Shown: positions 1,870-36,896 of the stretch, piece by piece | Layout of the letters: each line of letters begins with the position of its first letter | How positions within the stretch are numbered: the stretch's first letter is position 1 | From: Candidatus Poribacteria bacterium | GTDB taxonomy: Bacteria > Poribacteria > WGA-4E > WGA-3G | Direction: 5' to 3' | Assembly: GCA_026702755.1 (NCBI GenBank) | Contig: JAPPBX010000017.1 | Span: 13,743 to 77,742 of the forward strand | DNA: 64,000 bases | Notes under the pieces: generated by a model | The model's database searches: none | Seen by the model: the letters and a program-made list of their open reading frames with translations, nothing else | Told to the model about the DNA's origin: nothing | Made by a program: the position numbers and the translations under genes

Positions 1870-3381
1870 ATGCTAACAACACTCATTCGCCGGGAACTCC
1901 TTGATAACCTGATGACGTTCCGATTTGCTGCAGCTGCCTTGATTATGCTGTTGCTTGTCGTCGCGAATACCTCGGTGCTCATCACGGATCACGAGCAACG
2001 CTTGGCAAGCCACAATGCTGCGGTCAAAATGCATCAGAGGCAGCTTCAGGCGGCGAAAACGTATTCCTCAGGGATAAGGAAATTAGTCGTCGACCGACCC
2101 CCGAACCCGTTAAGCATTTTCAATGTCGGGTTCGATAAGCAGCTCGGAAACGAGGTTCAGATATCCCATTCGTATGTTCCATCGTTGTGGGACACCGGGA
2201 TGCATGGGTCGGACAATCCGTTTATGGATATGTTCGCTTCGCTGGATATTGTTTTTATCTTTGAGGTGATTCTGAGTTTATTGGCACTGATTTTCGCCTA
2301 CGATACGCTCGCTGGAGAATATGAACGTGGCACATTACGTCTGGTCTTGACACATCCGGTCCGTCGCGGGCATATCCTGCTTGCCAAATATATCAGTGCG
2401 ATGCTTTGCTTACTTGTGCCGTTGCTAATGAGCCTGCTCCTTGCAGTCATCTTGCTGACGATGACCCCTTCCATTTCTCTGAACACCGGTGATTTTTTGC
2501 GGATCGGAGGGATTATTTTAACCACCGTTGTATACCTTTCCGTATTCTATCTCATCGGACTGTTGATTTCGGCGGCGACGCGTCGGACCAGAACTGCGTT
2601 GATGCTCTCCATGTTTGTGTGGGGATTTTTGGTTCTTGTCTATCCGAATATGATTCTTGCCGTGGTCCCGCAACCGGAGGCACCGCAAGCGCGCCGGGCA
2701 TCCGCTTTTAATCAAATCGAACAGATGTGGGAGGAATTTGACAGAGACCGGAAACGGTTCCTCGCCACCGACGCGCTCCCAGGGGAAGACTGGCATTTTA
2801 ACATTCTGGGCAGTGGCGGGTATAGTGAAGGTCTTTGGGGTGACCCTAGTCGCTTGTTGTATGCCTACAACAGCAGCATGTCGGCTGGCAGCCTTAACGA
2901 TGAAGCTGAACCTAAGATTCCGCACGCCCAGAATTATTTCGGTTTCCTCGGGACCCAGGTTATCGGGACAGCAGACCAAACATGGCTCATCCGAAAGCCC
3001 GCACTGGAAGGCATCTTCACTCAACCCGCAAACGTGGAGCGACTCTATCTGAAACTCTCGCCCGTGGGACTGTATGATGCCGCAACACAAGCCTGGGCTG
3101 GCACAGACCTGCGCGGTGTCAGAGATTTTCTTGACGCTGCGAGACGACACAGACAGCGCGTAATTGACTATCTCTATGATGAAGAGGTATTCAAGTCTCG
3201 ACAGTGGTTTTCTTCGGACAAAGGTGCCGCAGATTGGAGCAATCTACCGCAGTTCTCTTTTCAAAGGGTCGATGTGAACACAAATGCAAAGCGAGCCTTA
3301 CCGGATTTAAGCATACTACTCATGCTTAATGTCATTATTTTCATCGTGATATTTCTGATTTTCATCAAAAGTGAAGTGTAA
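1870..3381 (+). CDS. ABC-2-type permease-like membrane protein (family A) with a large C-terminal extracytoplasmic domain and a terminal TM helix
   Basis: N-terminal TM helix; ABC-2 hallmark E-x-E-x-GTL (YERGTLRLVL); five further hydrophobic segments; about 220 aa of hydrophilic domain; a final TM helix (ILLMLNVIIFIVIFLIFI). Paralog of 9452..10987 (shared NPLSIFNVG, SDNPF, WFSSD[KR]GAA). Confidence 0.6.
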   Translation: MLTTLIRRELLDNLMTFRFAAAALIMLLLVVANTSVLITDHEQRLASHNAAVKMHQRQLQAAKTYSSGIRKLVVDRPPNPLSIFNVGFDKQLGNEVQISHSYVPSLWDTGMHGSDNPFMDMFASLDIVFIFEVILSLLALIFAYDTLAGEYERGTLRLVLTHPVRRGHILLAKYISAMLCLLVPLLMSLLLAVILLTMTPSISLNTGDFLRIGGIILTTVVYLSVFYLIGLLISAATRRTRTALMLSMFVWGFLVLVYPNMILAVVPQPEAPQARRASAFNQIEQMWEEFDRDRKRFLATDALPGEDWHFNILGSGGYSEGLWGDPSRLLYAYNSSMSAGSLNDEAEPKIPHAQNYFGFLGTQVIGTADQTWLIRKPALEGIFTQPANVERLYLKLSPVGLYDAATQAWAGTDLRGVRDFLDAARRHRQRVIDYLYDEEVFKSRQWFSSDKGAADWSNLPQFSFQRVDVNTNAKRALPDLSILLMLNVIIFIVIFLIFIKSEV

Positions 3382-3553
3382 AATGGCTATCAGCGGTCAG
3401 GTCGCTGCGCTTTCAGCAATCAGTTAAGAAACCTATGTGACGGTTGCTCGTGTGCTCACTCCCACAAACTGCTGATTACCGACTGCACTTACTAATATAG
3501 CACAATCACTCTTTGCTGAAGGCTCATTGCTGACAGCCGACAACCATAAAAAA

Positions 3554-4978
3554 ATGTGGCATATTGCGAAACGCGAACTTTATGATAATCTCAATAGCCT
3601 CCGATTTGCCCTGGCAACGGTGTTGTTGCTCGGCTTGATGTTGACCAACGCGATTGTACATCTCCGAGAACATCCGAAACGCGTCCAGAACTCTCGCAAT
3701 TATGTCGTCGAATATCAGAATCGCTTAGCATTTCATGCTGGGGATAGTTTGTATAAACTCGCCGAGCAGGGACCCGGGGACCTCCATAAGCAGCCATCTG
3801 TCCTCCGTTTCTGTGCAGAAGGCGGTGAGGCGTTTCTACCAAATTATGCGATAGGTGGTGCCGACCGTTGGGGACACGGCGGCCAACCGCCCTTAGAAAG
3901 TTTCTGGATACTGAACTATCCATCGGCCACCCCTGACCTGCATAATGTTCGCACAAACGTCACCAAAGTGGATTGGGGTTTTATCATCGGTTACGTCTTA
4001 AGTCTCATCGCGCTCCTATTCACCTTCGATGCGATTTCCCACGAACGCGAACGAGGCACACTGCGATTGATGTTGGCGAACTCGATTCCGCGTCATACCG
4101 TCCTGATTGGTAAGTTTTTAGGAGCATTAATCAGTATAAACATTCCTTTCACGCTTGCCGTCTTGGTGAATCTCTTAATGATTTCTACGTCAAGCGATGT
4201 ACACCTTAGTGCGGAGGCGTGGGGGCGTTTAGGGCTCATTTTCTCTATTGCGCTTTTGTACATAAGTCTATTTCTGGCGTTGGGGCTGCTTGTGTCGGCA
4301 CGTGTACAACGGAGCGCGGTGAGTCTCGTGATACTCCTCTTGGCTTGGGTCACCTTTGTCGTTTTTATGCCCAGTACACTCGTTTCGATTGCAGGGCGTT
4401 CTGCCCCGTCAACGTCTACTCTCGGATTTTCTGAACGCAGTGCTCAACTTGAGGAGGAACTTCTGCGCGAATACTACACGCTCCAATATGGTTCAAATAA
4501 GCCTTTAACTCAAATCCAAATATTACAAGTGGCAGGCGAGTTCGTCACCAAAGACGCAGCGCAGCAGGAACGCCTGCATGAAGAACGCTTAAAACAGCAA
4601 ATTTCTCAGGTCCGTCGGGCGCGTGCGATCACCCAAATTTCACCCGTCACCATTTTCTATCACCTCCTTGAAGCCTTTGCTGGAACGGGGTTTGAGCGAC
4701 ATTTGCAATTTTTAGAGAACGTTAAATCCTATGCCCAACAATTTCGGGTTTTCATCGCTGACACCGATCAAACCGATCCGGAGAGTCTTCATATCTTTGG
4801 GGTTCGTGAAGGGATGTCGCAGAAGCCTGTCGCTTCAGAGGCGATTCCAAAATTTGAAGATACCTTGAGTCTCAATAAGGACTTCAACACAGCAGCAGTC
4901 GATCTGTTGTTGCTAACGTTGTTCGTTGTAGTTTTACTATCCGCGGCGTATCTCGCGTTTGTCCGTGTCGAGCTTTAA
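3554..4978 (+). CDS. ABC-2-type permease-like membrane protein (family B)
   Basis: ERGTLRLML motif, multiple TM segments and a C-terminal TM. Paralog of 11149..12603 (MWHIAKRELYDNL vs MIWHIAKKEIYHNL; DPESLHIFGVREGMSQKPV vs DPESLHIYPVREGLSQKPV). The ATG at 3554 is preferred over the upstream TTG at 3527 because the paralog starts at the equivalent Met. Confidence 0.6.
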   Translation: MWHIAKRELYDNLNSLRFALATVLLLGLMLTNAIVHLREHPKRVQNSRNYVVEYQNRLAFHAGDSLYKLAEQGPGDLHKQPSVLRFCAEGGEAFLPNYAIGGADRWGHGGQPPLESFWILNYPSATPDLHNVRTNVTKVDWGFIIGYVLSLIALLFTFDAISHERERGTLRLMLANSIPRHTVLIGKFLGALISINIPFTLAVLVNLLMISTSSDVHLSAEAWGRLGLIFSIALLYISLFLALGLLVSARVQRSAVSLVILLLAWVTFVVFMPSTLVSIAGRSAPSTSTLGFSERSAQLEEELLREYYTLQYGSNKPLTQIQILQVAGEFVTKDAAQQERLHEERLKQQISQVRRARAITQISPVTIFYHLLEAFAGTGFERHLQFLENVKSYAQQFRVFIADTDQTDPESLHIFGVREGMSQKPVASEAIPKFEDTLSLNKDFNTAAVDLLLLTLFVVVLLSAAYLAFVRVEL

Positions 4979-5351: not shown

Positions 5352-8300
5352 ATGAAAAACAACGATGCTCAACTCATCCAACGCGTGCTTGAAGGCGATG
5401 ATACTGCGTTCTCCGTGCTTGTGAGAAAATATCAGAAATCCGTTCACGCACTGGCGTGGCGGAAGATCGGGGATTTCCATATCGCCGAGGATATTACACA
5501 GGATACCTTCCTGCAAGCGTATCAAAAACTCTCAACACTGAGAAAACCGCAGCGTTTCGCGGGTTGGCTCTATGTGATAGCAGCGAACTACTGCAAAATG
5601 TGGCTGCGTCAGAAACGTTTATCAACCCAGTCGTTGGAAAACACAAGCAGCGCGCAATTAGAAAAAGCAACCTATTCTGGATATGTTATTGAGGAAAACG
5701 AGCGGACAACAGCAGAAGCACAGCGCGAGATCGTCAAAAAGTTGCTTGCGAAGTTACAAGAGAGCGAGCGTACAGTCATCACCCTTTACTACCTTGGGGG
5801 AATGAATTATGAACAGATAAGCGAGTTTCTGGGTATGTCGGTTAGCGCGATTAAGAGCCGACTCCACCGAGCAAGACAACGATTAAAGAAGGAGGAACCG
5901 ATGATTCGAGAGGCTTTAGGCAACTTCCAAATTACACCAAATCTATCAGAGAATATTATGCGGGAGATTTCGCGTATGAACCCAATTGCGCCATCTAGCA
6001 GTAAACCGTTGGTGCCGTGGGCAATCGGCGTTTCCACATTAGTCGTTGTCTTTTTGATGGTAGGCGTTGGCAGTCAATACCTGTCGCGTTTCCAGAAACC
6101 CTACAGTTTCGATGCGACTTCGGAGATGACAGTTGAACTCATTGAAGCACCTATCGTGCTGAGCCTTGAATCCAAACCTGATGTCCGGACGCAGCTCGGA
6201 AACGTCAATACGCCAAGTAAGAACAATGCCTCTCATCGACAGCCTAATAAGGAAAAGTCTGTGGTTCACGAAACCTTGAAAGATTTCCAACACTCAGACG
6301 ATCTCGTGGAGGACATCATGAAATGGACTCGGGTACGTGAACCGGGTATATTGGGCGAAGTAGGTACCCTGTCAGGGACTTCGGAAAATACGCTCTATAC
6401 CGTTATAGGCGACAGGAGTATCTATAAGCTGCCATCGGGTGAGGAGGCGTGGCAACTTGTCGATGACACCTTCCTATATCAAAACACCGGCGGTAATATA
6501 CCCATAGCAGAGCGGGATGGTACACTTTATATTATCTTATCCAATGAATTGTATGCTTCCACTGATGATGGCGAAACTTGGCACTTCGTCGGCACCTGCC
6601 CCCAAGGGTATGTTAGGGAATTGAGGGTTACAGAAGATGCGCTTTACCTTTGTCTCAGTGACGGTATCTTCCGATCCGATGACGCTGGAAATTCTTGGAA
6701 GGATATAAGCAATGGCTTAGATGATCGCTTGTCCGAACACTCAGGAATTCATTCGTTACAAATGAGTCAAGGCACGCTATTTGTGAAAACCGATCTCGGA
6801 CTCTATCGTCTTGAGGCGGACACTTGGCAACACTTACGATTACCAGTAGATGAAGCCGTGCATGTTGGTTCTTTAGCGATATATGAGGACGAAATTTATG
6901 TCATAGCATCAGTGAATATTTTGGATTTCTATGGGGCTCCGAAAGATATTTGGGAGCGATTGTGGAAAGGCGAGATGCGTTCGTGGTGGATTTTCCGATC
7001 AACCGATGGGGGTGACGCATGGAAAGACATAACACCCATGAACGCTTGGAATCTGACGGGCTTCCGTCCGGATATAACGTTGATTACGACACGGAATACA
7101 CTCTTGGCAATCGGGAATGATGACGGTATGGTAGCACGCTCGGTTGATAGTGGAGACACTTGGACATCTATAGCGTCTTCAGGGATTTCTCCCATACAGT
7201 TCAGTGTGCGATGCGCTGTAGCTTTAGATGGAAACACATTTTATACGGGTGGCAGCAGTGGGATTCACCGTTCAACTGATGGTGGTAAGACGTGGCACCG
7301 CTTTCATACCGGACTGGAAAGTCGTGTTGATAATTTAGTTAGTTTCGTGGCAGATCAGGCACCAGACAGGTCTGCAGCACTTTACGCCAGCGTGGGTAAA
7401 CATTTTGTCAAATCGAACGATGGCGGAACATCCTGGGAGGCTGTCAGCTTGGCAGTGAACCCCAGTGCCCGTTTATCCCAAAAGCAACAACCGGAAATTG
7501 TGCAGGTAGCAAAAACTAATGGGGTGCTCTATGCAAAAGGAATTCAAGAAATTTATGAGACTGCTATTTTTCAGTTGTCTTCCGATGGTAATACTCTCAT
7601 CCCCGTTACAGGAACACCCCCTTCTTTAAGTTCATCTGGACTGGTGCAAAAAGTACTGGCGGGCAAGCGTTTCACTTTCAGAGACGAAAGACGATCAGTG
7701 CCGGAACTTCGCGTTGGCTTTTCTGGTGTAGCTGATGCCTTATTGGATGATTTATCAAAGACCCCTGATTTTGGGGCAGACAGTTTCTTTGAAAGATTGG
7801 TAGAGAGGCAAATAGACCCTCGAGTGGTCTATGAGTTAATACGGGAAGGATTATGGGGTAACTTCGCAGTCAGCGATGAAACGTTCTACATGGAATACAA
7901 CTATAAACTCTTCCGATGGAAACCTGGTGACCCAGAATGGCACGACACCGGTTTGGAGGAGACCGGTGAACTCCGTCGCGAGACCTTGTGGAGAGGCTTT
8001 AAAATCGCTGCATCGGACGGAACCGTCTATGTCGGTAAGCGGGATGGACATCTCTTACAATCGCTTGATGGGGGAGACACTTGGAATGATGTCACACCAA
8101 ATCTGCCCTTCTCTATCGAGCATTTCAAAGAGATAGTCTTTGCAGATTCAACGGTCTGCGTCGCGACTGATAAAGGGGTTTTTTATTCAAAAGATGGCGT
8201 TGTCTGGAATGTCCTTGTCGATGAGACGGGAAAACCTGTTATCATCAAGTCGTTATCTACAATAGGGGATTCCGTTTACGGTGCCAACGATGAAGGCATC

Positions 8301-8447
8301 TATTATCTACAAGGTGAGACAGATACTTGGGAACAAATTGCCCCAGAAGTTTCAGGTGTCGTGACTTCTCTCGTTGTGGACGAAAATATGTTTTACGTCG
8401 GCACGGAACGACGAGGTGTCCTGCGTTTTGAACGTACCAGCAGATAA
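5352..8447 (+). CDS. ECF sigma-70 factor fused in-frame to a transmembrane helix and an extracytoplasmic BNR/Asp-box beta-propeller domain (one-polypeptide sigma/anti-sigma-like sensor)
   Basis: Sigma-70 region 2 (FSVLVRKYQKSVHALAWRKIGDFHIAEDITQDTFLQAY). Region 4 HTH (ERTVITLYYLGGMNYEQISEFLGMSVSAIKSRLHRARQRLKK). Then about 45 aa, then a TM helix (WAIGVSTLVVVFLMVGVGSQYL). Then about 750 aa carrying Asp-box motifs (STDDGETWHF, SDDAGNSWKDI, STDGGDAWKDI, SVDSGDTWTSI, STDGGKTWHRF, SNDGGTSWEAV, SLDGGDTWNDV). A GGGG/SD-like sequence and the ATG lie at 5340-5354. Confidence 0.75.
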   Translation: MKNNDAQLIQRVLEGDDTAFSVLVRKYQKSVHALAWRKIGDFHIAEDITQDTFLQAYQKLSTLRKPQRFAGWLYVIAANYCKMWLRQKRLSTQSLENTSSAQLEKATYSGYVIEENERTTAEAQREIVKKLLAKLQESERTVITLYYLGGMNYEQISEFLGMSVSAIKSRLHRARQRLKKEEPMIREALGNFQITPNLSENIMREISRMNPIAPSSSKPLVPWAIGVSTLVVVFLMVGVGSQYLSRFQKPYSFDATSEMTVELIEAPIVLSLESKPDVRTQLGNVNTPSKNNASHRQPNKEKSVVHETLKDFQHSDDLVEDIMKWTRVREPGILGEVGTLSGTSENTLYTVIGDRSIYKLPSGEEAWQLVDDTFLYQNTGGNIPIAERDGTLYIILSNELYASTDDGETWHFVGTCPQGYVRELRVTEDALYLCLSDGIFRSDDAGNSWKDISNGLDDRLSEHSGIHSLQMSQGTLFVKTDLGLYRLEADTWQHLRLPVDEAVHVGSLAIYEDEIYVIASVNILDFYGAPKDIWERLWKGEMRSWWIFRSTDGGDAWKDITPMNAWNLTGFRPDITLITTRNTLLAIGNDDGMVARSVDSGDTWTSIASSGISPIQFSVRCAVALDGNTFYTGGSSGIHRSTDGGKTWHRFHTGLESRVDNLVSFVADQAPDRSAALYASVGKHFVKSNDGGTSWEAVSLAVNPSARLSQKQQPEIVQVAKTNGVLYAKGIQEIYETAIFQLSSDGNTLIPVTGTPPSLSSSGLVQKVLAGKRFTFRDERRSVPELRVGFSGVADALLDDLSKTPDFGADSFFERLVERQIDPRVVYELIREGLWGNFAVSDETFYMEYNYKLFRWKPGDPEWHDTGLEETGELRRETLWRGFKIAASDGTVYVGKRDGHLLQSLDGGDTWNDVTPNLPFSIEHFKEIVFADSTVCVATDKGVFYSKDGVVWNVLVDETGKPVIIKSLSTIGDSVYGANDEGIYYLQGETDTWEQIAPEVSGVVTSLVVDENMFYVGTERRGVLRFERTSR

Positions 8448-8629: not shown

Positions 8630-9451
8630 ATGGAAAAACTATTTGATTACGCTGTGCTATTTAGTGCGTTGATGCTTATTGCAGCAGGCTACGCTGCGGC
8701 AGATATTGCTGATGGCCTTGCGGTTCACTTTACGTTCGATTCCGTCAAAGGCAAGCGAATTCTTGACGAGTCCGGCAACGGTCTGGATGCCGAAGTTATC
8801 AAAAACACTCAATTTGTCAAGGGCAAATACGGAAAAGCAATTCGTATCACTGGTGAAACTGAAGATTGCGTGAATATCCCGTCCTCGGATGCCTTAAAAA
8901 TCAGTGATGAAATTACGATGATGGCATGGGTGTATCACGAAGATTGGACGCGGAGTTCTTCCCAATGGTTTGATAAGGGGTGCTATTCTAAGCACACTGA
9001 ATCTTACGGTATGGTAGTCTGGGGTAAAAAGGATTTTCCGGAACTAGGAGCCCTTGAAACGGACTCAGTGGTCTCGATGCTTGTTGGGGGTGCAGACTTG
9101 CAGCAAAGCATTACTACACCGAACGAAATGAAGCATAGGACATGGCATCATGTCGTCGGAACCTACGGTGATAAAGCTTTAAAAATCTATCTTGATGGAA
9201 AAATAATTGCTAATTTACCTTCACAGGTTGATGACTTCTTCGGCACCAACGAGGAGGATTTGCGGGTTGGCTGTGCGAAAAATAAACCGCAGTACGCATT
9301 TGAAGGCGGTTCCATTGATGAAGTTGCGATATGGAGTCGTGTGCTCAGTGAAGATGAAGTCAGAACCGCGATGCAGGGCCCCTTGCTCGCAATCTCGCCG
9401 AAGGGTAAGGTCACTACGACGTGGGGCAATATGAAGCGGAAGGCGTTTTAG
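8630..9451 (+). CDS. Secreted LamG_3 / concanavalin A-like lectin-glucanase superfamily protein (paralog 1)
   Basis: Signal peptide MEKLFDYAVLFSALMLIAAGYAAA. LamG_3-type motifs (GLAVHFTFD; ITMMAWVY; C-terminal IDEVAIWSRVLSEDEV). GAGG RBS. The stop codon abuts the next ATG (TAGATG at 9449-9454). The C-terminal tail is GKVTTTWGNMKRKAF. Confidence 0.7.
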   Translation: MEKLFDYAVLFSALMLIAAGYAAADIADGLAVHFTFDSVKGKRILDESGNGLDAEVIKNTQFVKGKYGKAIRITGETEDCVNIPSSDALKISDEITMMAWVYHEDWTRSSSQWFDKGCYSKHTESYGMVVWGKKDFPELGALETDSVVSMLVGGADLQQSITTPNEMKHRTWHHVVGTYGDKALKIYLDGKIIANLPSQVDDFFGTNEEDLRVGCAKNKPQYAFEGGSIDEVAIWSRVLSEDEVRTAMQGPLLAISPKGKVTTTWGNMKRKAF

Positions 9452-10987
9452 ATGTCTGAATCGCGGAGGACTTGGTATAAATTTATGACAACACTTTGGC
9501 TAATTATCCAGCGAGAATTCGTCTCAAATGTTCTGACCTCCCGATTCATGATCGGTTTTGTGGTCTGTCTGATGTCGACAGCTGCTGCCGTTTTCGTTCA
9601 GGTTGCAGATTACGAAAAGCGATTGGGAACATATCACGTTGCTGTTCAGGAACATCACGAAGAGAAGCGAATGTGGGACCTCTACAGCCAAATTAATCCA
9701 AAGGCATATAGGAAACCGAATCCACTCAGCATCTTTAACGTCGGCATGGAAAAATCCGGTGCGGATATGGTGAGTATTAAATTGGCAACACCTATTTGGG
9801 AGAAAGAAGCACAGAAACAGGGATCAGACAACCCATTCCTTTCAATTTTCCTTTCTATTGATGTCATTTTCGTCTTCAAAATCGTGCTCAGTGCGTTGGC
9901 AATTTTGTTTGCTTACAACACAATTTCAGGGGAGAGGGAGGATGGTACCCTAAAACTGGTGTTATCCAATCCGGTTTCGAGGGACGCGCTCGTACTTGGG
10001 AAATACCTTGGTGGCGTGTTATCTCTGTTTCCGATTGTGGTGATGAGTTTCACTGTTGGCATCGTTATTGCTTACACCTCTCCTGCTACTGATTTTGATG
10101 CTGATGATCTGCTACGCCTCGTCATGGTGCTCGTTGTTTCGCTGTTGTATGTGTCAATCTGTTATCTTTTAGGGATGCTCTTATCTGTGTGGACAAAGGA
10201 AGCAGCGACTACGCTGATCCTTTCGATGTTTATTTGGGGAATTCTGACAATTGTCCATTCAAATATAGCAACGTTTGCAGTCGCGAAGTTCCCACCGCGT
10301 AAACCTCAACCCGAAAAAGAAGTGCTGCAACAGATTGATCAGATGTGGGAAAATTTCAAGGAAGAACGAAATGCCCAACTGAAAAAGTGGGGATATAAGT
10401 ATCCAACAAGCGCGCTTTCTTGGATAGCCGATGGTCCTCTGACACTGTCGATTGAAATGCGGTCGCCAGGGGAACTCGGGTTCCAAGAACTTTATGAAAT
10501 CAAACCTATTGACATCTTAGATGTTTCCAAATTTCAGGAAGTATTAGGCTACCAAGAACCGCTCCGTATTGATTATGTAAACAAAGCTGAGGAAATTTTC
10601 AAACGGAGGGAGGACATTCGCGAAAGGAACAGTCAACTCGCCAGAGATATTTCCCGGGTATCTTTCGCGGACACATATCGTTTTGCTGTCGGCGCAATTA
10701 TAGGCACGGACAGGAAGAGTTATAATGATTTTATCGGACAGGTGAGAAATTATAAGCGTCAAGTTGTGGACTACCTCGCCGGTAAGAATGCATTTTCCGC
10801 GCGAGCGTGGTTTTCGAGTGATAGGGGAGCTGCAGAACTCACAGATCTACCTGTTTTTCAGCACCGATATAACTCCCTTTCTGAGGGTCTCTCGCGTGCG
10901 TCGGGTGATATTTTTATTTTATTAGCGTGGAATGTTATTCTGTTCATGGGCGCATACGTATCGTTCCTCCGGTATGATATGAGTTGA
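9452..10987 (+). CDS. ABC-2-type permease-like membrane protein (family A, second copy)
   Basis: Paralog of 1870..3381. EREDGTLKLVL motif, TM segments, a large C-terminal hydrophilic domain and a terminal TM helix. The start is translationally coupled to the upstream LamG gene. An alternative start at Met12 (MTTLWLIIQREF) is possible. Confidence 0.6.
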   Translation: MSESRRTWYKFMTTLWLIIQREFVSNVLTSRFMIGFVVCLMSTAAAVFVQVADYEKRLGTYHVAVQEHHEEKRMWDLYSQINPKAYRKPNPLSIFNVGMEKSGADMVSIKLATPIWEKEAQKQGSDNPFLSIFLSIDVIFVFKIVLSALAILFAYNTISGEREDGTLKLVLSNPVSRDALVLGKYLGGVLSLFPIVVMSFTVGIVIAYTSPATDFDADDLLRLVMVLVVSLLYVSICYLLGMLLSVWTKEAATTLILSMFIWGILTIVHSNIATFAVAKFPPRKPQPEKEVLQQIDQMWENFKEERNAQLKKWGYKYPTSALSWIADGPLTLSIEMRSPGELGFQELYEIKPIDILDVSKFQEVLGYQEPLRIDYVNKAEEIFKRREDIRERNSQLARDISRVSFADTYRFAVGAIIGTDRKSYNDFIGQVRNYKRQVVDYLAGKNAFSARAWFSSDRGAAELTDLPVFQHRYNSLSEGLSRASGDIFILLAWNVILFMGAYVSFLRYDMS

Positions 10988-11148
10988 GGAGGAGGGTTAT
11001 CAGTTTTTTAGTTTTCAGTTTTCAGTTAAGATGCGCTTTGTAACAATCTTCCCACCATAGAATATTTTAGGGCGAGGTGAATTGTTACCAGAAACCTCTT
11101 GTGACTGATAACTGTTAACTGACCGCTGACAACTGACAACCATTAAAA

Positions 11149-12603
11149 ATGATTTGGCATATTGCGAAAAAAGAGATATATCATAACCTCATGACGCTGC
11201 GGTTCGTTTTGATGGTAATCCTGCTGCCTGCCCTAATGCTGGCGAACGCGCTCATATACGGCTTCGGCGATAGTGGATATAGAGAGGAAGTCGATGCGTA
11301 TAACCTCGCGATGGAAAGAAGATTGTCTCGCGTTAAGGACGATGCCGACGAGAGTTTAGGGAAACTCGCTATGCGGGGTCCCGGTGAGATTTACAAGCGT
11401 CTGAGTCGATTCAAATTTTGTGCTGATGGGGCTGCTGAACTCATCCCGAACTCTATCCCCATTGCAGCGCATGGAGGCGGTCGTGGAGGTAGTGGTGGTG
11501 TAGTAGAAGACTACAGTTGGCGAGAAATGTGGACTCTTGAATATCTACCGTCAAATCATGGAGGCGGCGCAACCACACTTATCAAAATCGACTGGGTGTT
11601 CATCGGTATCTTCATGGGTTTCTTTGTTATACTATTCACTTTCGATGCCATTGCCGGGGAACGGACAAAGGGAACACTGAGCCTCATGATGTCTAACCAG
11701 ATTTCCCGAGGACAGATGCTATTCGCGAAATATCTGGGCACGTTTTTTACACTCATGGTGCCGCTCACAATAGGTATCCTCATGAACCTACTGGTCATCT
11801 ATCTTTCAGGGAGTATTTCGTTTAGTTCGAGTGATTGGCTTAGAATTTTAGGGATGGTCGGACTTTTTACGCTGCATATCTCTATCTTTATTTTTCTCGG
11901 ACTGTTCTTCTCAAGTCGGGTATCAAACGCCATCACCAGTTTAGTGTGGTTGCTATTAACTTGGGTATGCTTGGCGTTTATCTTTCCGAGCTTACTCGGA
12001 CTTTTCGTTGGTACCCTCGACCCGATTCCGTCAATAGAGATCGTCTCCTCGCGAAAACGTGCACAATTAGCAAACATCGAGGATGAATTTCGTCCAATGG
12101 AGTTGTTGGAGGTAACCAAACTAAGCGAGGCACCTTCACCTGATAATCCATCAGCCACACGCCGATGGGCAACGTACTTCACGAGAAGGTACGAAACGAA
12201 AACCCGTATAGCCGACGAACACGTAGATCAGCAATTGAGGCAGGTGAAACTCGCCAGGGAACTCACCCAAATCTCTCCGATAGTTTGCTTCCAATATGCA
12301 ATGGAAGGGCTTGCAAACACTGGGATTGTTAGTTATATGGATTTTGTCAAGCAGGTTCGCCGTTACAGACAAACATTTATAGATTTCATCAAAACGGAGG
12401 ATCAAGGCGATCCGGAGAGTTTACATATCTATCCTGTGAGAGAAGGGTTGTCTCAGAAACCGGTGGACCCAAACGCTATACCAAGGTTTAAAGAGCGCAT
12501 TTCATATCAAAGTGTGATTTTTCCTGTCGGACTGTTAATCCTTTTTAATATCTTGTTCTTTACTGCAGCGCAGTTGTCCTTTCTGAAATGTGATCTGAAA
12601 TAA
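11149..12603 (+). CDS. ABC-2-type permease-like membrane protein (family B, second copy)
   Basis: Paralog of 3554..4978. ERTKGTLSLMM motif. Gly-rich loop GGGRGGSGG. It is preceded by the CTGACAACTGACAACC-ATTAAAA-ATG leader motif. Confidence 0.6.
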   Translation: MIWHIAKKEIYHNLMTLRFVLMVILLPALMLANALIYGFGDSGYREEVDAYNLAMERRLSRVKDDADESLGKLAMRGPGEIYKRLSRFKFCADGAAELIPNSIPIAAHGGGRGGSGGVVEDYSWREMWTLEYLPSNHGGGATTLIKIDWVFIGIFMGFFVILFTFDAIAGERTKGTLSLMMSNQISRGQMLFAKYLGTFFTLMVPLTIGILMNLLVIYLSGSISFSSSDWLRILGMVGLFTLHISIFIFLGLFFSSRVSNAITSLVWLLLTWVCLAFIFPSLLGLFVGTLDPIPSIEIVSSRKRAQLANIEDEFRPMELLEVTKLSEAPSPDNPSATRRWATYFTRRYETKTRIADEHVDQQLRQVKLARELTQISPIVCFQYAMEGLANTGIVSYMDFVKQVRRYRQTFIDFIKTEDQGDPESLHIYPVREGLSQKPVDPNAIPRFKERISYQSVIFPVGLLILFNILFFTAAQLSFLKCDLK

Positions 12604-12639: not shown

Positions 12640-12731
12640 TTTTCCAATTGATGTGGTGGTACGCGGTTAAGCGTATTTTCACTGGTTCCGAGACCTTTTT
12701 ATTTTCTCTAACCTGTCAAAAGGAGTTTATC

Positions 12732-13526
12732 ATGAAAAGGGTTCTTGTGATTTTCGCGGTGATTGGGATACTCATCAGTTTTGCACCGTGTAGTAAAGCC
12801 AATCCGCCGGATGGATTAGTGCTACATCTGAGTTTCGATAAAAATAGCATTCAAGGCGATACCGCAAAAGATCTGTCTGAGGAAGGCAATGATGGGATCA
12901 TTAACGGTAACGCAACGATGGTCGCGGGAAAGCATGGCGACGCATTGGAGTTTGATGGCAAGGATGACTTTGTTGAAGTACCACTGGAAGATTCGATTAC
13001 CTTTTCCACTGGCGATTCACTAACAGTCCAAGTGTGGGTAAAAACAGACGATGAGCCACCAAAGAACGATGGGATTGTCGGAAACTATCGTCCGGGTACT
13101 GATGCGGTTTGGATACTCTCTGTCAGCGGCGATAACCCAGCGACTCGTGGCAAAATGGCTTTTAGTGTCCGGGACAAGGGACGTGCCAATAGTGCTGGGA
13201 TAACTTCTCCGGACTTCCTGAACGATGACAAATGGCATGTCCTTGCTGGTGTCCGAGACCAGAAAGCAAAAAAGATCAGATTCTACATAGACGGTAAGTT
13301 GATTGATGAAGTTGATGACAATACAAAGGACATCAACAGCGGGCAGTCAATTTGGGTAGGAGAGCATCTGAACCGGTATTACAAGGGACTCATTGATGAA
13401 GTGAAAGTGTGGAACCGTCCATTGACCGCCGCGGAACTTGAGCAATCAGGCCAACAACCGTCTGCTGTTGGTGCCTCCGGAAAGTTGACGACTGTATGGA
13501 GTGCGCTCAAAACAGCACACCGGTAG
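12732..13526 (+). CDS. Secreted LamG_3 / concanavalin A-like protein (paralog 2)
   Basis: AAGGAG RBS then ATG. Signal peptide MKRVLVIFAVIGILISFAPCSKA. LamG_3 motifs (GLVLHLSFD, LTVQVWV, C-terminal LIDEVKVWNRPLTAAELEQ). C-terminal tail GKLTTVWSALKTAHR. Confidence 0.7.
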   Translation: MKRVLVIFAVIGILISFAPCSKANPPDGLVLHLSFDKNSIQGDTAKDLSEEGNDGIINGNATMVAGKHGDALEFDGKDDFVEVPLEDSITFSTGDSLTVQVWVKTDDEPPKNDGIVGNYRPGTDAVWILSVSGDNPATRGKMAFSVRDKGRANSAGITSPDFLNDDKWHVLAGVRDQKAKKIRFYIDGKLIDEVDDNTKDINSGQSIWVGEHLNRYYKGLIDEVKVWNRPLTAAELEQSGQQPSAVGASGKLTTVWSALKTAHR

Positions 13527-13687: not shown

Positions 13688-14743
13688 TTAACTTAGCGAA
13701 AAAACGCTCACCCCACCCGACTCGTCACCAACAGCAATATACTGGTCGTTCGGTGACCAAACGAGGCTTGTGACCCCCGCTGCCAGGGCGGCTTCATGAA
13801 CCGCCAGAGAACTCATTCTGCCTCGCAATTGCCAGACGTAGATCAGACCGTCAGCACCACCTGAGGCGAGCAGTTTTCCGCGATGTTGAAAACGCACAAC
13901 GCTGAGAAAATCCTGATGCCTGGAAAGCGTGATCGGGTTGGTCCCAGCCGGGCCGCGACCGGAACAATCCCACACCGTAACTTCCTGACTGCCTCCGGTA
14001 GCCAAGTATCGACTCGTGGCATCCCACGAGAGTTCTCGCACTTTCGTCGGATAGCCAGTCATTTGCAAGTCTTCACCGGTAGACATAATCCAGAAATGTA
14101 CGGTCGAATCTTGATCTCCGGTGGCGATGTGTTTGCCGTCAGGGCTCCACGCAATTACCAGTGATGAGCCTTTCCATTCCAATCGGCGGACGGCTTCCGA
14201 CTGTTGCGGGTCCCACAGCGTGACACCGCCGTAGGCAATCGAGGCAAGTTGTCTTACACGCGGTCTCCACTGGAGATCAGAAATCGTGCTCTGATGATCG
14301 GAATATTCGCGAACAAGATCGCCGACAGCGTTCCAGAGTTTCAGCTTACGCCCCGCGGCAGAGGCGAGTATCGGTTTCTTGCCGCCACTCCAAGATAGAT
14401 GCTCAACCCATGCAGCGCCCCCGTCAAGCGAATGGGTCGCTTCGCCACTCGCCATATCCCACAACCGAATTTTCCCATCTTGTCCTGCGCTTGCAAGCAC
14501 CTTGCTGTCTGGACGCCATGCGATTGACATTGTACCGAATTCATGCCCTTCAAAGGCATGGATAACCGTTCGACGACCACCTTCAAAAATTGTAACCGGA
14601 CCGAGAACCGACGCGGCAGCAATGTATCTCCCATCAGGGGACCACGCCAGATCAATGACGTGGTCGCTGATGGTTACGGTCCAATTTTCGCGCAGTTGAG
14701 AGGGCTGGAAAAAGCGGTTGCTCAGGTTGTTCAAGCGAGACAT
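13688..14743 (-). CDS. WD40-repeat beta-propeller protein
   Basis: Multiple WD-like blades (AWSPDGRYIAAASVLGPVTIFE; IAWRPDSKVLASAGQDGKIRLWD; AWSPDGKHIATGDQDSTVHFW; VWSPNDQYIAVGDESGGVSVFS). Its start overlaps the 3' end of the upstream COG0523 gene by 13 nt. Confidence 0.8.
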   Translation of the reverse strand: MSRLNNLSNRFFQPSQLRENWTVTISDHVIDLAWSPDGRYIAAASVLGPVTIFEGGRRTVIHAFEGHEFGTMSIAWRPDSKVLASAGQDGKIRLWDMASGEATHSLDGGAAWVEHLSWSGGKKPILASAAGRKLKLWNAVGDLVREYSDHQSTISDLQWRPRVRQLASIAYGGVTLWDPQQSEAVRRLEWKGSSLVIAWSPDGKHIATGDQDSTVHFWIMSTGEDLQMTGYPTKVRELSWDATSRYLATGGSQEVTVWDCSGRGPAGTNPITLSRHQDFLSVVRFQHRGKLLASGGADGLIYVWQLRGRMSSLAVHEAALAAGVTSLVWSPNDQYIAVGDESGGVSVFSLS

Positions 14744-16083: not shown

Positions 16084-16102
16084 CTTTCTCTCCTTGTAGA
16101 AT

Positions 16103-16363: not shown

Positions 16364-16483
16364 TATTGTATGTCCTCCTTTAAACCGTCTGTCATCAGGC
16401 TCGTATCAATGTAGCAACGTTGTACGACAGGAACCTGCCTGGCGAACGCTTGCCACTGTGAAGCCTTGTAACTCACGGTTTGC

Positions 16484-21812: not shown

Positions 21813-21816
21813 AAGG

Positions 21817-33164: not shown

Positions 33165-33953
33165 ATGAAGAATGCAGTATTGACTTACAAGTTCTCCCCT
33201 TACGGGGTCGTGTGTTTCTTGGTAGCGTTGTCTATGATCCTCGCGCCGTTTGTTTCGGCTAACTTTGAAGAGGGACTTGTCCTGAATCACCATTACGATG
33301 AGGGGCAAGGCACACTTGCTGCAGATGCCAGCGGACATGGGCACGATGGCGAAATTTCCAATCCAGAGTGGGTCGATGGTAAATTCGGGAAGGCACTCAG
33401 ATTTGGTGGTGAAGGCAGCGACGTTTTCGTTACCGTTGAGAGTACGGCTGCCTTGAATGTAAACGAGTGTACGTTTATGGCGTGGATTAACGCCGATCAT
33501 TGGAATGGGGTACGCCAAATTGTTGGCAAATCCGTCCACGGTGGTTGCGCCGGTAGAACGCAATACGGCCTGTTTAGTGAAGGTGGTGTTTTCAAAGTCC
33601 GCTTTGAAACTGAAAACGGCAGAGCCGACATTTCAACGGATCTTCCACCAACCGGTGAATGGGTTCACGTCGCTTTTACCAACGATGGTGCAATGGCGAA
33701 AATCTATATTAATGGCAGCTCAGTTGTTGAAGGCGCGGTCCCGGGTCCACTGAGAGCGAACGACGATCCCTGGCGGATCGGACAGGACTGTGAACGTCTC
33801 AACTACGTCTTCGCAGGTGCTATAGACGAAGTTCGTCTCTGGAACCGTGCGTTGACGACTGCTGATATTGGTGAGTTAATGCCTTCAGCCGTTGCTGTTG
33901 ACGCTCGCGGAAAATTGGCGACCACTTGGGGCAGTATCAAAACTGCTCATTAA
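33165..33953 (+). CDS. Secreted LamG_3 / concanavalin A-like protein (paralog 3)
   Basis: Signal peptide. GLVLNHHYDEG, CTFMAWIN, NDDPWRIGQDCERLNYVFAGAIDEVRLWNRALTTADIGELM. C-terminal tail GKLATTWGSIKTAH. About 75% identical to paralog 4. Confidence 0.75.
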   Translation: MKNAVLTYKFSPYGVVCFLVALSMILAPFVSANFEEGLVLNHHYDEGQGTLAADASGHGHDGEISNPEWVDGKFGKALRFGGEGSDVFVTVESTAALNVNECTFMAWINADHWNGVRQIVGKSVHGGCAGRTQYGLFSEGGVFKVRFETENGRADISTDLPPTGEWVHVAFTNDGAMAKIYINGSSVVEGAVPGPLRANDDPWRIGQDCERLNYVFAGAIDEVRLWNRALTTADIGELMPSAVAVDARGKLATTWGSIKTAH

Positions 33954-36119: not shown

Positions 36120-36896
36120 ATGAAATTGGCTATTTGTTTATCTATCGCCTTGCTTTTGATGGTGACACCCTTCGCTATGTCTATTGGTCCAGGAGAATTT
36201 CTGGACGGTTTAGTGCTATACCATCCCTATGATGAAGGGAAAGGGGCCAAAGCCGAAGATTTTAGCGAAAATGAACACGAGGGTGTAATTGACAACCCGA
36301 AGTGGGTTAACGGAAAATTCGGAAAGGCATTGGAATTTGGTGGTCCAGGCAGCGACGTTTTTGTCACAGTTGAGAGCACTCCAAAACTGAACGTGGATGA
36401 ATTCTCGTTTATGGCGTGGATCAACTCCGAGGAATGGAATGGTGTCCGTCAAATCGTCGGCAAATCCGTTCATGGTGGATGCGGCGGTAGGGTCCAATAC
36501 GGCGTGTTCAGTGAAGGAGGGGTCTTCAAAATCCGTCTCGAAACCGAATCGGGGCGCGCCGATATTGCAACCGATCTACCTGAGACTGGGGAATTTGTGC
36601 ATATCGCTTTCACCAACGATACCAAGAAAACCAAAATCTACTATGATGGCAAAGAGGTACAGGAGGGAGATACGCCCGGGAAACTCAAAGCCAACGATGA
36701 TCCCTGGCGGGTTGGACAGGATTGCGACCGTCTCCAGTATGTTTTTGCAGGGATTATTGACGAAGTTCGTCTCTGGAATCGCGCATTGAGCGAGGAGGAA
36801 ATCAATACGTTTATGGATCAGGGCGTAGAGGCACTCGCGGTTGAAGCAACTGGGAAACTCTCCACAACCTGGAGCCGTCTTAAAGCAGGACTTTAA
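36120..36896 (+). CDS. Secreted LamG_3 / concanavalin A-like protein (paralog 4)
   Basis: Signal peptide MKLAICLSIALLLMVTPFAMS. GLVLYHPYDEG. NDDPWRVGQDCDRLQYVFAGIIDEVRLWNRALSEEEI. C-terminal tail GKLSTTWSRLKAGL. Confidence 0.75.
   Translation: MKLAICLSIALLLMVTPFAMSIGPGEFLDGLVLYHPYDEGKGAKAEDFSENEHEGVIDNPKWVNGKFGKALEFGGPGSDVFVTVESTPKLNVDEFSFMAWINSEEWNGVRQIVGKSVHGGCGGRVQYGVFSEGGVFKIRLETESGRADIATDLPETGEFVHIAFTNDTKKTKIYYDGKEVQEGDTPGKLKANDDPWRVGQDCDRLQYVFAGIIDEVRLWNRALSEEEINTFMDQGVEALAVEATGKLSTTWSRLKAGL

What the first reader, a model, noticed from the sequence alone, without database searches (positions are those of the whole stretch)
8630..9451. Conserved C-terminal tail GK(L/V)xTTW(G/S)x(I/L/M)K shared by all four otherwise diverged LamG paralogs
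The four secreted LamG_3 proteins (8630, 12732, 33165, 36120) end in ...GKVTTTWGNMKRKAF, ...GKLTTVWSALKTAHR, ...GKLATTWGSIKTAH and ...GKLSTTWSRLKAGL. Paralogs 1 and 2 are only distantly related to 3 and 4 over the LamG domain. This 12-15-aa hydrophilic tail at the extreme C-terminus is nevertheless retained. That pattern fits a sorting, secretion or recognition signal, for example for the adjacent permease module, a protease or an outer-membrane partner. It is unlike LPXTG, PEP-CTERM or T9SS domains. I do not recognise it as a described sorting motif.
Basis: seen in the sequence. Interest (0 to 1): 0.65.

Follow-up and report, generated by a model that had tools for sequence, protein, structure and literature searches.

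The report
Poribacteria-specific C-terminal protein sorting tag
The short conserved tail on these four secreted lectin-like proteins is not part of their fold but a roughly 20-residue C-terminal tag that Poribacteria (mostly sponge-associated bacteria) attach to hundreds of unrelated exported proteins, which points to an undescribed protein-sorting or surface-anchoring signal.

Summary
All four Laminin_G_3 ORFs end in GK[LV]xT[TV]W[GS]x[ILM]K, 3-4 residues before the stop. The motif occurs nowhere else in the six-frame translation (expected by chance 4e-6). Pfam's LamG match ends about 28 aa earlier. AlphaFold2 models of two paralogs give pLDDT below 50 for the tail. The same tail, extended consensus [LTF]-[AP]-V-[ED]-[PA]-x-x-K-L-[ATS]-T-T-W-G-x-[LI]-K-x(1-5)-COOH, also ends unrelated proteins: DUF1080, F5/8-C, CBM9, PA14, Kelch and PD40 propellers, an ankyrin protein and 850-2240-aa lamin-tail-domain giants. 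The tail is strictly C-terminal (152 terminal versus 2 internal occurrences). It is selected at the peptide level, since all synonymous codons are used. It accompanies an N-terminal signal-peptide-like segment (124/126). It is essentially confined to Candidatus Poribacteria (108/120 genome hits). A tail profile finds 889 protein clusters. It has no transmembrane helix and matches no sorting-domain model, while a genuine T9SS C-terminal domain in the same window does. The link to the adjacent ABC-2 permeases is not supported (2/120 loci). I found no literature on the motif. The best reading is a new phylum-specific C-terminal sorting or anchoring tag whose recognition machinery is unknown.

The parts
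8630..9451 (+). LamG paralog 1 (273 aa): signal-like N-terminus (aa 1-24), Laminin_G_3 domain (aa 78-244, nt 8861-9361), linker, C-terminal tag
   Evidence: AF2 model m0a6d7c800871: jelly roll confident to about aa 250, aa 255-273 pLDDT 37-48. Foldseek best matches are lectin-like jelly rolls.
9386..9448 (+). C-terminal tag of paralog 1: LAISPKGKVTTTWGNMKRKAF (subfamily variant with I at -10, V at -4, an RKAF ending)
   Evidence: 99 of 120 subfamily homologs match the relaxed tail regex, and the 21 that do not carry close variants with the W kept.
12729..13526 (+). LamG paralog 2 (265 aa from the ATG at 12729): signal-like N-terminus, Laminin_G_3 domain (aa 76-237, nt 12954-13439), C-terminal tag
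   Evidence: The ATG start is supported by the homolog in L047, which starts MKRVFVIFAVIG.
13461..13523 (+). C-terminal tag of paralog 2: SAVGASGKLTTVWSALKTAHR
33165..33953 (+). LamG paralog 3 (262 aa): signal-like N-terminus, Laminin_G_3 domain (aa 86-235, nt 33420-33869), C-terminal tag
   Evidence: AF2 model mb0b8030dbdbe: aa 246-262 pLDDT below 50.
33891..33950 (+). C-terminal tag of paralog 3: VAVDARGKLATTWGSIKTAH
36120..36896 (+). LamG paralog 4 (258 aa): signal-like N-terminus, Laminin_G_3 domain (aa 79-229, nt 36354-36806), C-terminal tag
36834..36893 (+). C-terminal tag of paralog 4: LAVEATGKLSTTWSRLKAGL

Best explanation
The tail is a modular C-terminal tag of about 20 residues, restricted to one lineage. 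Its consensus is [LTF]-[AP]-V-[ED]-[PA]-x-x-K-L-[ATS]-T-T-W-G-x-[LI]-K followed by 1-5 variable, often basic residues and then the stop. Candidatus Poribacteria append it, through a flexible linker, to many unrelated Sec-exported proteins. These are mainly lectin-like or carbohydrate-binding modules, beta-propellers and giant adhesin-like proteins. Proposed mechanism: the N-terminal signal peptide takes the protein across the inner membrane. The exposed, unstructured, positively charged tag is then read by a dedicated and still unidentified periplasmic or outer-membrane factor. That factor exports the protein to the cell surface and/or tethers it there, possibly with processing near the conserved V-[ED]-P. 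In logic this is like T9SS C-terminal domains or PEP-CTERM/exosortase tags, but the signal is physically different: it has no transmembrane helix and no folded domain. Shown here: modularity, strict C-terminal position, peptide-level selection, co-occurrence with signal-peptide-like N-termini, restriction to Poribacteria, and lack of any match to known sorting signals. Inferred: that the tag's role is sorting or anchoring, where the proteins end up, and that a dedicated reader exists.
For: (1) The tag is not part of the fold. The Pfam LamG match ends about 28 aa before the C-terminus. AF2 gives pLDDT above 90 for the jelly roll and below 50 for the tail in two paralogs that are 34% identical.
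(2) The tag is modular. The tagged proteins fall into a LamG cluster (71 of 122) plus 18 other clusters. Those clusters include 3keto-disac_hyd/DUF1080, F5/8 type C, CBM9, lamin tail domain, ankyrin, DUF3108-like, PA14, PD40 and Kelch proteins, plus several families with no Pfam match.
(3) The position is fixed. The relaxed motif lies in the last 22 aa of 152 ORFs and is internal in 2, among 5351 ORFs. Between 1 and 5 residues follow the final K in 149 of 156 tails.
(4) Conservation extends beyond the search pattern. V at -10 (96%), P/A at -8 (92%) and A/P/S at -11 (91%) are conserved although the pattern did not specify them.
(5) Selection acts on the peptide. All synonymous codons are used at the invariant V, K, L, T, G and K positions.
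(6) The tag accompanies export. 124 of 126 tagged proteins against 238 of 414 untagged ORFs have a hydrophobic N-terminal segment by a lenient heuristic (odds ratio 46, p = 9e-23).
(7) Scale. A tail profile finds 889 representatives of 50%-identity clusters at E <= 1e-3. In 137 of 141 newly returned top hits the motif ends within 6 aa of the C-terminus, and 61 of these are at least 800 aa long.
(8) Lineage. 108 of 120 loci are titled Poribacteria.
(9) Distinct from known signals. There is no NCBIfam or Pfam sorting-domain hit even at E <= 10, while a protein in the same window passes TIGR04183 as a positive control. No transmembrane-like hydropathy occurs in the last 30 aa.
(10) In this window the tag occurs only on the four LamG proteins, not on the periplasmic ZnuA homolog or the TonB-dependent outer-membrane receptor. 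It therefore marks a subset of exported proteins.
Against: No reader, processing enzyme or transporter was identified, and neighbourhood analysis gave no universal partner. There is no experimental or proteomic evidence on localisation, cleavage or attachment. The signal-peptide test is a crude hydrophobicity heuristic with a 57% background rate. Near-invariant sequence (TTWG) fits a specific protein-protein contact, but that contact need not serve sorting.
Confidence: 0.55

Rival explanations
1. Docking peptide rather than sorting signal. The tag is a short linear motif that non-covalently plugs many different secreted modules into one shared extracellular scaffold or partner, in the manner of cohesin-dockerin binding or beta-strand augmentation. 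Export itself would be tag-independent.
For: The core is near-invariant (K-L-x-T-T-W-G-x-[LI]-K), which is typical of a specific peptide-protein interface. The tag sits on a flexible linker. The passengers are mostly binding modules. Tail genes often sit in apparent operons with secreted TPR and FG-GAP/ASPIC proteins (18 and 14 of 120 loci), and TPR domains are classical binders of C-terminal peptides (established knowledge, for example PEX5-PTS1).
Against: No common scaffold was identified. The TPR and FG-GAP neighbours occur in only a minority of loci and appear to be multi-copy. A docking role and a surface-anchoring role overlap and cannot be separated in silico.
Confidence: 0.2
2. In-plane amphipathic membrane anchor. 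The last roughly 13 residues form a short amphipathic helix (L at -4, W at 0, L/I at +3 on one face, flanking lysines). This helix would tether the exported protein peripherally to a membrane leaflet, as the C-terminal helices of E. coli PBP5 and PBP6 do.
For: The hydrophobic residues have i, i+4, i+7 spacing and are flanked by conserved K at -5 and +4, with net charge about +3. AF2 draws a low-confidence helix over aa 249-261 and 265-272.
Against: Only three hydrophobic positions are available. Thr-Thr-Trp-Gly is a poor helix former. Generic membrane anchors do not need a near-invariant sequence or the conserved upstream V-[ED]-P. pLDDT is below 50, so the drawn helix is not evidence.
Confidence: 0.1
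3. A degenerate or minimal form of a known C-terminal signal, handled by known machinery: PEP-CTERM/exosortase (via the V-E-P element) or T9SS.
For: [AP]-V-E-P followed about 15 residues later by basic residues loosely recalls VPEP...RR of PEP-CTERM (plus my own knowledge of TIGR02595). The same genome encodes a protein that passes the T9SS type A sorting-domain model. Kamke et al. 2014 noted Por_Secre_tail-like domains in Poribacteria without T9SS structural genes (PMC3909097).
Against: There is no transmembrane helix between the VEP element and the basic end (maximum 15-aa hydropathy: median 0.37, highest 1.47). The tag is about 20 aa, against 70-100 aa for a folded T9SS C-terminal domain. 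No HMM hit to any sorting model appears even at E <= 10. In the giant proteins the E and P of VEP are replaced by S/T/N and A.
Confidence: 0.08
4. The tail is simply the conserved last beta-strand or structural element of this LamG subfamily.
For: All four carriers in this window are LamG proteins. LamG proteins are the largest single class of carriers (71 of 122).
Against: The tail lies outside the Pfam domain. It is modelled with pLDDT below 50 in two models. It is present on at least 10 unrelated folds, including beta-propellers and ankyrin repeats.
Confidence: 0.02
5. The conservation reflects a nucleotide-level element at gene 3' ends (a terminator, REP-like repeat or regulatory RNA), or a degron or propeptide with no targeting role.
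For: The position next to the stop codon is fixed. A C-terminal extension removed by a tail-specific protease would also be position-locked.
Against: Every synonymous codon is used at the conserved positions, including all 6 Leu, 4 Val, 4 Thr and 4 Gly codons, and all three stop codons occur. This excludes a DNA or RNA element. A universal degron on hundreds of exported lectins and adhesins has no precedent. The last 1-5 residues, which PDZ-type proteases read, are the variable part.
Confidence: 0.04

Closest known systems
T9SS type A C-terminal sorting domain (TIGR04183 / PF18962)
   Same: It is a C-terminal signal on Sec-exported, signal-peptide-bearing proteins with many unrelated passenger domains (lectins, propellers, giant adhesins). 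It is lineage-restricted and multi-copy per genome. It ends in a hydrophobic-Lys motif.
   Different: The T9SS domain is a folded beta-sandwich of 70-100 aa. The tag here is about 20 aa and modelled as unstructured. It gets no HMM hit, while a true T9SS domain in the same window (17754-20990, minus strand) scores 30.8 bits against a cutoff of 23.
PEP-CTERM / exosortase sorting signal (TIGR02595)
   Same: It is a short C-terminal tag on secreted proteins and often sits on LamG or DUF1080-type passengers in other phyla (my own knowledge). It has a conserved Pro/Glu-containing motif (V-E-P here) and a basic end.
   Different: PEP-CTERM needs a transmembrane helix of about 20 residues between the motif and the Arg cluster. 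Here that interval is the hydrophilic K-L-x-T-T-W-G-x-L-K, with no transmembrane-like hydropathy. There is no HMM hit.
C-terminal amphipathic-helix anchors of low-molecular-weight PBPs (E. coli PBP5/PBP6)
   Same: It is a C-terminal segment without a transmembrane helix on a Sec-exported soluble domain. The spacing of its hydrophobic residues is compatible with an amphipathic helix.
   Different: PBP anchors are poorly conserved in sequence and are confined to one enzyme family. This tag is near-invariant and spread over unrelated families.
PTS1 / PEX5 and other short C-terminal linear targeting motifs
   Same: It is a short, position-locked C-terminal peptide that is independent of the passenger fold. 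It would be read by a receptor rather than inserted into a membrane.
   Different: PTS1 is the extreme C-terminal tripeptide of cytosolic proteins. Here the conserved core is followed by 1-5 variable residues and the carriers are exported bacterial proteins.

Membership tests
Laminin_G_3 fold element (the tail as the last strand of the jelly roll) | The residues lie inside the domain model and pack into the fold | tested here: not met
   The Pfam match ends at aa 244/273, 237/265, 235/262 and 229/258. AF2 pLDDT is below 50 for aa 246-262 and 255-273.
Laminin_G_3 fold element (the tail as the last strand of the jelly roll) | The tail is present only on LamG proteins | tested here: not met
   The same tail occurs on DUF1080, F5/8-C, CBM9, LTD, ankyrin, PA14, PD40, Kelch and DUF3108-like proteins and on families with no Pfam match.
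T9SS type A C-terminal sorting domain | Match to TIGR04183 / PF18962 and a folded domain of about 70-100 aa | tested here: not met
   No hit at E <= 10 (NCBIfam), E <= 1 or E <= 0.01 (Pfam). The positive control in the same window passes. The tag is about 20 aa.
T9SS type A C-terminal sorting domain | T9SS machinery (PorU, PorV, SprA and others) in the genome | not testable with these tools
   Only a 64-kb window is available. Kamke et al. 2014 reported no Por structural genes in Poribacterial single-cell genomes (PMC3909097).
PEP-CTERM / exosortase | PEP motif, then a transmembrane helix, then an Arg-rich cluster at the C-terminus | tested here: not met
   V-[ED]-[PA] is present but no transmembrane helix follows. 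Maximum 15-aa Kyte-Doolittle hydropathy in the last 30 aa: median 0.37, highest 1.47. No TIGR02595 hit.
PEP-CTERM / exosortase | Exosortase (EpsH/XrtA) encoded in the genome | not tested
   None of the annotated ORFs of the window is an exosortase. A whole genome was not available.
LPXTG / sortase | LPXTG-like pentapeptide, then a transmembrane helix, then a basic tail | tested here: not met
   No LPXTG motif and no transmembrane helix. No NCBIfam hit.
Outer-membrane protein beta-signal | Aromatic residue (F, W or Y) at the extreme C-terminal position of a beta-barrel protein | tested here: not met
   The last residue is R, Q, K, N or D in most tails, F in 14 of 156 and W or Y in 8 of 156. The passengers are soluble jelly rolls and propellers.
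Generic class: modular C-terminal protein-sorting tag | Fixed position at the C-terminus | tested here: met
   152 terminal versus 2 internal occurrences. 1-5 residues follow the core in 149 of 156 tails.
Generic class: modular C-terminal protein-sorting tag | Carried by unrelated passenger domains and conserved independently of them | tested here: met
   19 sequence clusters and at least 10 Pfam families. Selection is at the peptide level.
Generic class: modular C-terminal protein-sorting tag | Co-occurs with an N-terminal signal peptide | tested here: met
   124 of 126 tagged versus 238 of 414 untagged ORFs by a hydrophobicity heuristic. This is a heuristic, not SignalP.
Generic class: modular C-terminal protein-sorting tag | Lineage-restricted and multi-copy | tested here: met
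   108 of 120 hits are titled Poribacteria. There are 4 copies in this 64-kb window, up to 3 tandem copies in one locus (L057), and 889 clusters at 50% identity.
Generic class: modular C-terminal protein-sorting tag | A dedicated reader or processing enzyme, and demonstrated cleavage, attachment or localisation | not testable with these tools
   No universal neighbour was found. Comparative whole-genome profiling or experiments are needed.
Encapsulin / microcompartment cargo-targeting peptide | C-terminal peptide on cytoplasmic cargo that lacks a signal peptide | tested here: not met
   The carriers have signal-like N-termini.

The most novel reading that the evidence does not exclude
The tag is the substrate signal of a previously unrecognised, Poribacteria-specific secretion or surface-attachment pathway. 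A dedicated and still unknown reader or transpeptidase would display hundreds of lectin-like and giant adhesin-like proteins on the symbiont surface. That would make it a new entry alongside T9SS C-terminal domains, PEP-CTERM/exosortase and LPXTG/sortase, and the first such tag with neither a transmembrane helix nor a folded domain.
Probability: 0.35. Interest if true: 0.8.

Novelty: new variant of a known kind. Interest (0 to 1): 0.62.

Why it matters
Poribacteria are dominant, uncultivated sponge symbionts, and relatives now appear as complete MAGs. How they expose their large repertoire of lectin-like and eukaryote-like repeat proteins is unknown. Earlier work noted T9SS-like tails without a T9SS. 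A single, easily searchable 20-residue tag that marks hundreds of exported protein clusters, including 1-2-kilo-residue adhesin-like giants, gives three things. It gives a direct way to enumerate the likely surface or secreted proteome of any Poribacterial genome. It gives a handle for finding the cognate machinery, through phylogenetic profiling or peptide pull-downs. It may also give a new type of bacterial sorting signal. For annotation, an HMM of the tag would improve on the current uninformative name 'LamG domain-containing protein'.

Tried and rejected
(1) Searching the 5.8-billion protein set with the tail alone failed. A 42-aa tail alignment returned only 42 short ORF fragments of 33-74 aa.
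(2) I looked for a universal neighbour or partner. tblastn of all window ORFs against the 120 tail loci and all-against-all clustering of locus ORFs found recurrent TPR, FG-GAP/ASPIC, PhyH, Gfo/Idh/MocA and ECF-sigma genes. None is present in more than 15% of loci. ABC-2 permeases are present in 2 of 120.
(3) The permease link within the 8630 subfamily is conserved at 88% identity (L121) but lost at about 60% (L123 and L124).
(4) NCBIfam, Pfam and TIGRFAM sorting-signal models gave no hit.
(5) Literature searches for Poribacteria plus sorting, secretion, LamG or T9SS, and for the peptide strings TTWG, TTTWG, ATTWG and STTWG found nothing that describes the motif.
(6) A nucleotide-level element was rejected on codon usage.
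(7) An encapsulin or microcompartment targeting peptide was rejected because the carriers have signal-like N-termini.
(8) I did not use the metagenome or viral scans. They would add neither taxonomy nor per-genome counts.
Full report
OBSERVATION. Each has a hydrophobic, signal-peptide-like N-terminus. Each has one Laminin_G_3 domain (PF13385, E 2e-20 to 4e-27) that ends 28-29 residues before the C-terminus. Each ends with GK[LV]xT[TV]W[GS]x[ILM]K followed by 3-4 residues and a stop. In the six-frame translation of the 64-kb window the motif occurs exactly four times, all at these C-termini. The number expected from the window's own amino-acid composition is 4e-6. One correction applies. Paralogs 3 and 4 are 70% identical over the mature body, whereas all other pairs are 31-40% identical.

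ORGANISM AND CONSERVATION WITHIN LamG. Homologs of the 33165 and 8630 proteins are 'LamG domain-containing protein [Candidatus Poribacteria bacterium]' wherever a source names them. Of the 120 best homologs of paralog 3, 114 keep T-x-W-x-x-x-K in the last 25 residues, and the other six carry one-residue variants. Of the 120 best homologs of paralog 1, 99 match a relaxed regex, and the other 21 are close variants with the W kept (for example KVTMTWGNIK). That subfamily has its own flavour, [AS]-V-S-P-K-[GD]-K-V-[AT]-T-T-W-G-[ND]-I-K-R-K-A-F.

IS IT JUST THE LAST STRAND OF THE FOLD? No. Three independent lines show this.
- The tail lies outside the Pfam domain match.
- AlphaFold2 with 56- and 58-sequence alignments models the jelly roll at pLDDT above 90 up to about residue 240-250. 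It gives pLDDT 37-49 for residues 246-262 (paralog 3) and 255-273 (paralog 1). The folded part resembles lectin-like jelly rolls: clostridial neurotoxin Hc-N, the trans-sialidase lectin domain and the GH43 AbnA binding domain.
- The tail is not confined to LamG proteins. I scanned one genome per GTDB species with a degenerate DNA pattern for K-L-[SATP]-T-T-W-G-x-[ILMVF]-K, where about 26 chance hits are expected from the pattern's information content (my calculation). Of these, 130 lie 1-5 residues before a stop. Clustering the protein bodies without their last 24 residues gave a LamG cluster (71 of 122) plus 18 other clusters. Pfam on representatives identified 3-keto-disaccharide hydrolase/DUF1080, F5/8 type C, CBM9, lamin tail domain (968 aa), ankyrin repeats in a 622-aa protein that also contains an HExxH sequence, DUF3108-like, tandem PA14-like, PD40 and Kelch beta-propellers. 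Several families had no Pfam match.

ANATOMY OF THE TAG. Aligning 156 tails on the invariant Trp gives [LTF](-12)-[AP](-11)-V(-10, 96%)-[ED](-9)-[PA](-8)-x-x-K(-5)-L(-4)-[ATS]-T-T-W(0)-G-x-[LI](+3)-K(+4), followed by 1-5 variable residues (mode 3), often ending in R. Positions -12 to -8 were not part of the search pattern, so their conservation is independent evidence for a real module. A variable, Gly-enriched linker precedes the tag. The tag is about 20 residues long and carries net charge about +3 from K(-5) onward. It has no transmembrane-like hydropathy: the maximum 15-residue Kyte-Doolittle value in the last 30 aa has a median of 0.37 and a highest value of 1.47. Among 5351 ORFs of at least 60 aa in the 917 kb of fetched loci, a relaxed motif sits in the last 22 residues 152 times and elsewhere only twice. 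All synonymous codons are used at the invariant positions, and all three stop codons follow the tag. Selection therefore acts on the peptide, not on a DNA or RNA element.

ASSOCIATION WITH EXPORT AND SCALE. By a lenient hydrophobicity heuristic, 124 of 126 complete tagged proteins have a signal-like N-terminus, against 238 of 414 untagged ORFs of at least 200 aa in the same loci (odds ratio 46, p = 9e-23). I built a profile from the window's four tails plus short ORF fragments returned (alignment A4). Searched against 1.84 billion 50%-identity cluster representatives, it found 889 proteins at E <= 1e-3. Of 141 newly returned top hits, 137 carry the motif within 6 residues of the C-terminus. 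Sixty-one of them are at least 800 aa long (up to 2242 aa), and 80 of the 93 that are at least 200 aa have signal-like N-termini. The giants sampled contain lamin-tail domains, with weaker matches to fn3, He_PIG Ig-like and chitobiase C-terminal domains. This is the make-up of surface adhesin-like proteins. Within this window the tag occurs only on the four LamG proteins, not on the ZnuA homolog or the TonB-dependent receptor. It therefore marks a subset of exported proteins, not all of them.

TAXONOMIC RANGE. Of the 120 genome loci, 108 are titled Poribacteria. Nine are unnamed 'uncultured bacterium' MAGs. One is a sponge MAG labelled Pseudomonadota, from the same sample as a Poribacterial bin. 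Two (Synechococcus, Bacteroidaceae) are non-C-terminal chance matches. One unnamed MAG (L117) has 64.6% GC, outside the 35-57% range of the named loci, yet carries two Kelch proteins with perfect tags. Its taxonomy is unresolved.

THE PERMEASE IDEA. In the window, the stop codon of paralog 1 abuts the ATG of an ABC-2-type permease (TAGATG). Two such permease pairs (1870-4978 and 9452-12603) flank an ECF-sigma/BNR fusion gene. This arrangement is kept in an 88%-identical relative (L121). However, permease homologs occur in only 2 of 120 tail-bearing loci. Members of the same LamG subfamily at about 60% identity have different neighbours. The tag is therefore not tied to this module. The most frequent neighbours of tail genes are secreted TPR proteins (18 loci) and FG-GAP/ASPIC (CRTAC1-like) proteins (14 loci). 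These often sit directly adjacent on the same strand, next to tail genes of at least five families. They lack the tag and are not universal.

COMPARISON WITH KNOWN SIGNALS. No NCBIfam (release 20.0) or Pfam model hits the tail, even at E <= 10. This covers TIGR04183, PEP-CTERM, LPXTG and the other -CTERM models that NCBIfam carries (by my knowledge of that library). As a positive control, the 1078-aa protein at 17754-20990 (minus strand) in this same window passes the T9SS type A sorting-domain model (30.8 bits against a cutoff of 23). Its C-terminus reads ...SGVYFYRLSTPSFHQMKRMVILK. So this genome carries two distinct C-terminal modules. The V-E-P element loosely recalls PEP-CTERM, but the obligatory transmembrane helix is absent. 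Full-text searches for the peptide strings, and for Poribacteria with sorting, secretion, LamG or T9SS, found no description of the motif. The nearest remark is in Kamke et al. 2014, who saw Por_Secre_tail-like domains in Poribacteria without T9SS structural genes and left the pathway open (PMC3909097).

INTERPRETATION. The following points are shown: the tail is a modular, flexibly linked tag; it is locked to the C-terminus; it is selected at the peptide level; it is essentially confined to Poribacteria; it sits on hundreds of unrelated proteins with signal-like N-termini; and it is distinct from all modelled sorting signals. What follows is inferred, at about 0.55. The tag is read after Sec export by a dedicated, unidentified factor that directs surface export and/or tethering, analogous in logic to T9SS domains or PEP-CTERM tags. 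The rivals are as follows:
- A pure docking peptide for a shared extracellular scaffold (about 0.2). This overlaps with anchoring.
- A PBP5-like amphipathic in-plane anchor (about 0.1). The L(-4)/W(0)/[LI](+3) spacing fits, but the near-invariance and the Thr/Gly content do not.
- A degenerate substrate of exosortase or T9SS (about 0.08).
- A degron, propeptide or nucleotide element (about 0.04). The nucleotide version is excluded.
- The last strand of the LamG fold (about 0.02). This is excluded.

VERDICT. The specific permease partner does not hold up. I classify the tag as a new variant of a known kind, a C-terminal sorting or recognition tag, with an unknown reader. Interest is 0.62. It is a clean, large-scale and apparently undescribed feature of an ecologically important uncultivated phylum, and it is immediately usable for annotation and for hunting the cognate machinery. 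Its function is still inferred.

Noticed in passing
window 17754-20990 (-): This 1078-aa protein has an AztD-like zinc-metallochaperone region and HAF repeats. Its C-terminal domain passes the NCBIfam T9SS type A sorting-domain cutoff (TIGR04183, 30.8 bits against 23) and ends ...KRMVILK. Poribacteria have been reported to lack T9SS structural genes (PMC3909097), so a second, different C-terminal sorting module coexists with the short tag.
   Followed up: partly
window 13688-25703 (-): Apparent zinc-acquisition cluster: CobW/ZigA-like GTPase (14731-16083), the AztD-like T9SS-tailed protein, ZnuA (21989-22954), a MerC-like membrane protein (22935-23408) and a TonB-dependent receptor with a CarboxypepD_reg domain (23424-25703). 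A eukaryote-like WD40 protein (13688-14743) sits beside it.
   Followed up: no
window 5352-8447 (+) and 45-1802 (+): An ECF sigma factor (regions 2 and 4) is fused to a region of about 850 aa containing BNR/Sortilin-like beta-propeller repeats. The ORF at 45-1802 resembles its C-terminal part and is probably a second such fusion cut by the window edge. The same sigma-BNR / ABC-2 x2 / sigma-BNR / LamG / ABC-2 x2 order is kept in L121. Homologs of the sigma-BNR fusion recur in 9 of 120 tail loci.
   Followed up: partly
window 1870-4978 (+) and 9452-12603 (+): Two tandem pairs of ABC-2-type permeases (ABC2_membrane_2 plus DUF3526, about 480-510 aa each) have no adjacent ABC ATPase gene. The stop codon of LamG paralog 1 abuts the first permease's ATG (TAGATG).
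   Followed up: partly
window 33165-36896 (+); L110, L009: LamG paralogs 3 and 4 flank a 636-aa AAA+ ATPase (34063-35973). The LamG / AAA / LamG order is conserved at 74-82% identity in L110 and, from the spacing of the two tails, in L009.
   Followed up: no
L004, L013, L019, L063, L074, L100, L102, L109, L114, L115 and others: Secreted TPR proteins (18 of 120 loci) and FG-GAP/ASPIC (CRTAC1-like) proteins (14 of 120) lie immediately beside tail-bearing genes of at least five different families, often as TPR / FG-GAP / tagged-lectin runs on one strand. They carry no tag themselves.
   Followed up: partly
L117 (CAYYPK010000012.1): An unnamed MAG contig with 64.6% GC, outside the 35-57% range of the named Poribacterial loci, encodes two Kelch-propeller proteins with perfect tags (...EKLTTTWGAMKRR). 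Either the tag extends beyond typical Poribacteria or this is a high-GC Poribacterial lineage.
   Followed up: no
L026, L055, L085; P0168-P0303 (many): Giant tagged proteins (850-2240 aa, lamin tail domain with weaker fn3 and He_PIG matches) share a conserved, Pfam-unassigned segment just before the tag (in L026 starting about 120 aa from the C-terminus: ...VELSHF...YYYQI[EQ]DVS[LF]DG...[HR]L[RK]G.V.AAGKLTTTWG). In these proteins the V-E-P of the tag is replaced by V-[STN]-A.
   Followed up: no
L007 (-), PD40 cluster: Some PD40 (TolB-like) propeller proteins carry a degenerate tag without the Lys at -5 (...LPVEPTASSLTTTWGEVKHR). Counts based on the K-L-x-T-T-W pattern therefore underestimate the family.
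   Followed up: no
window 50201-57885: Polysaccharide-export genes: UDP-glucose/GDP-mannose dehydrogenase, a HAD phosphatase, a PfkB kinase, Wza-like Poly_export/SLBB (54143-55390) and a Wzc-like Wzz/GNVR/P-loop tyrosine-kinase-type protein (55531-57885). None of the annotated ORFs in the window is an exosortase.
   Followed up: no
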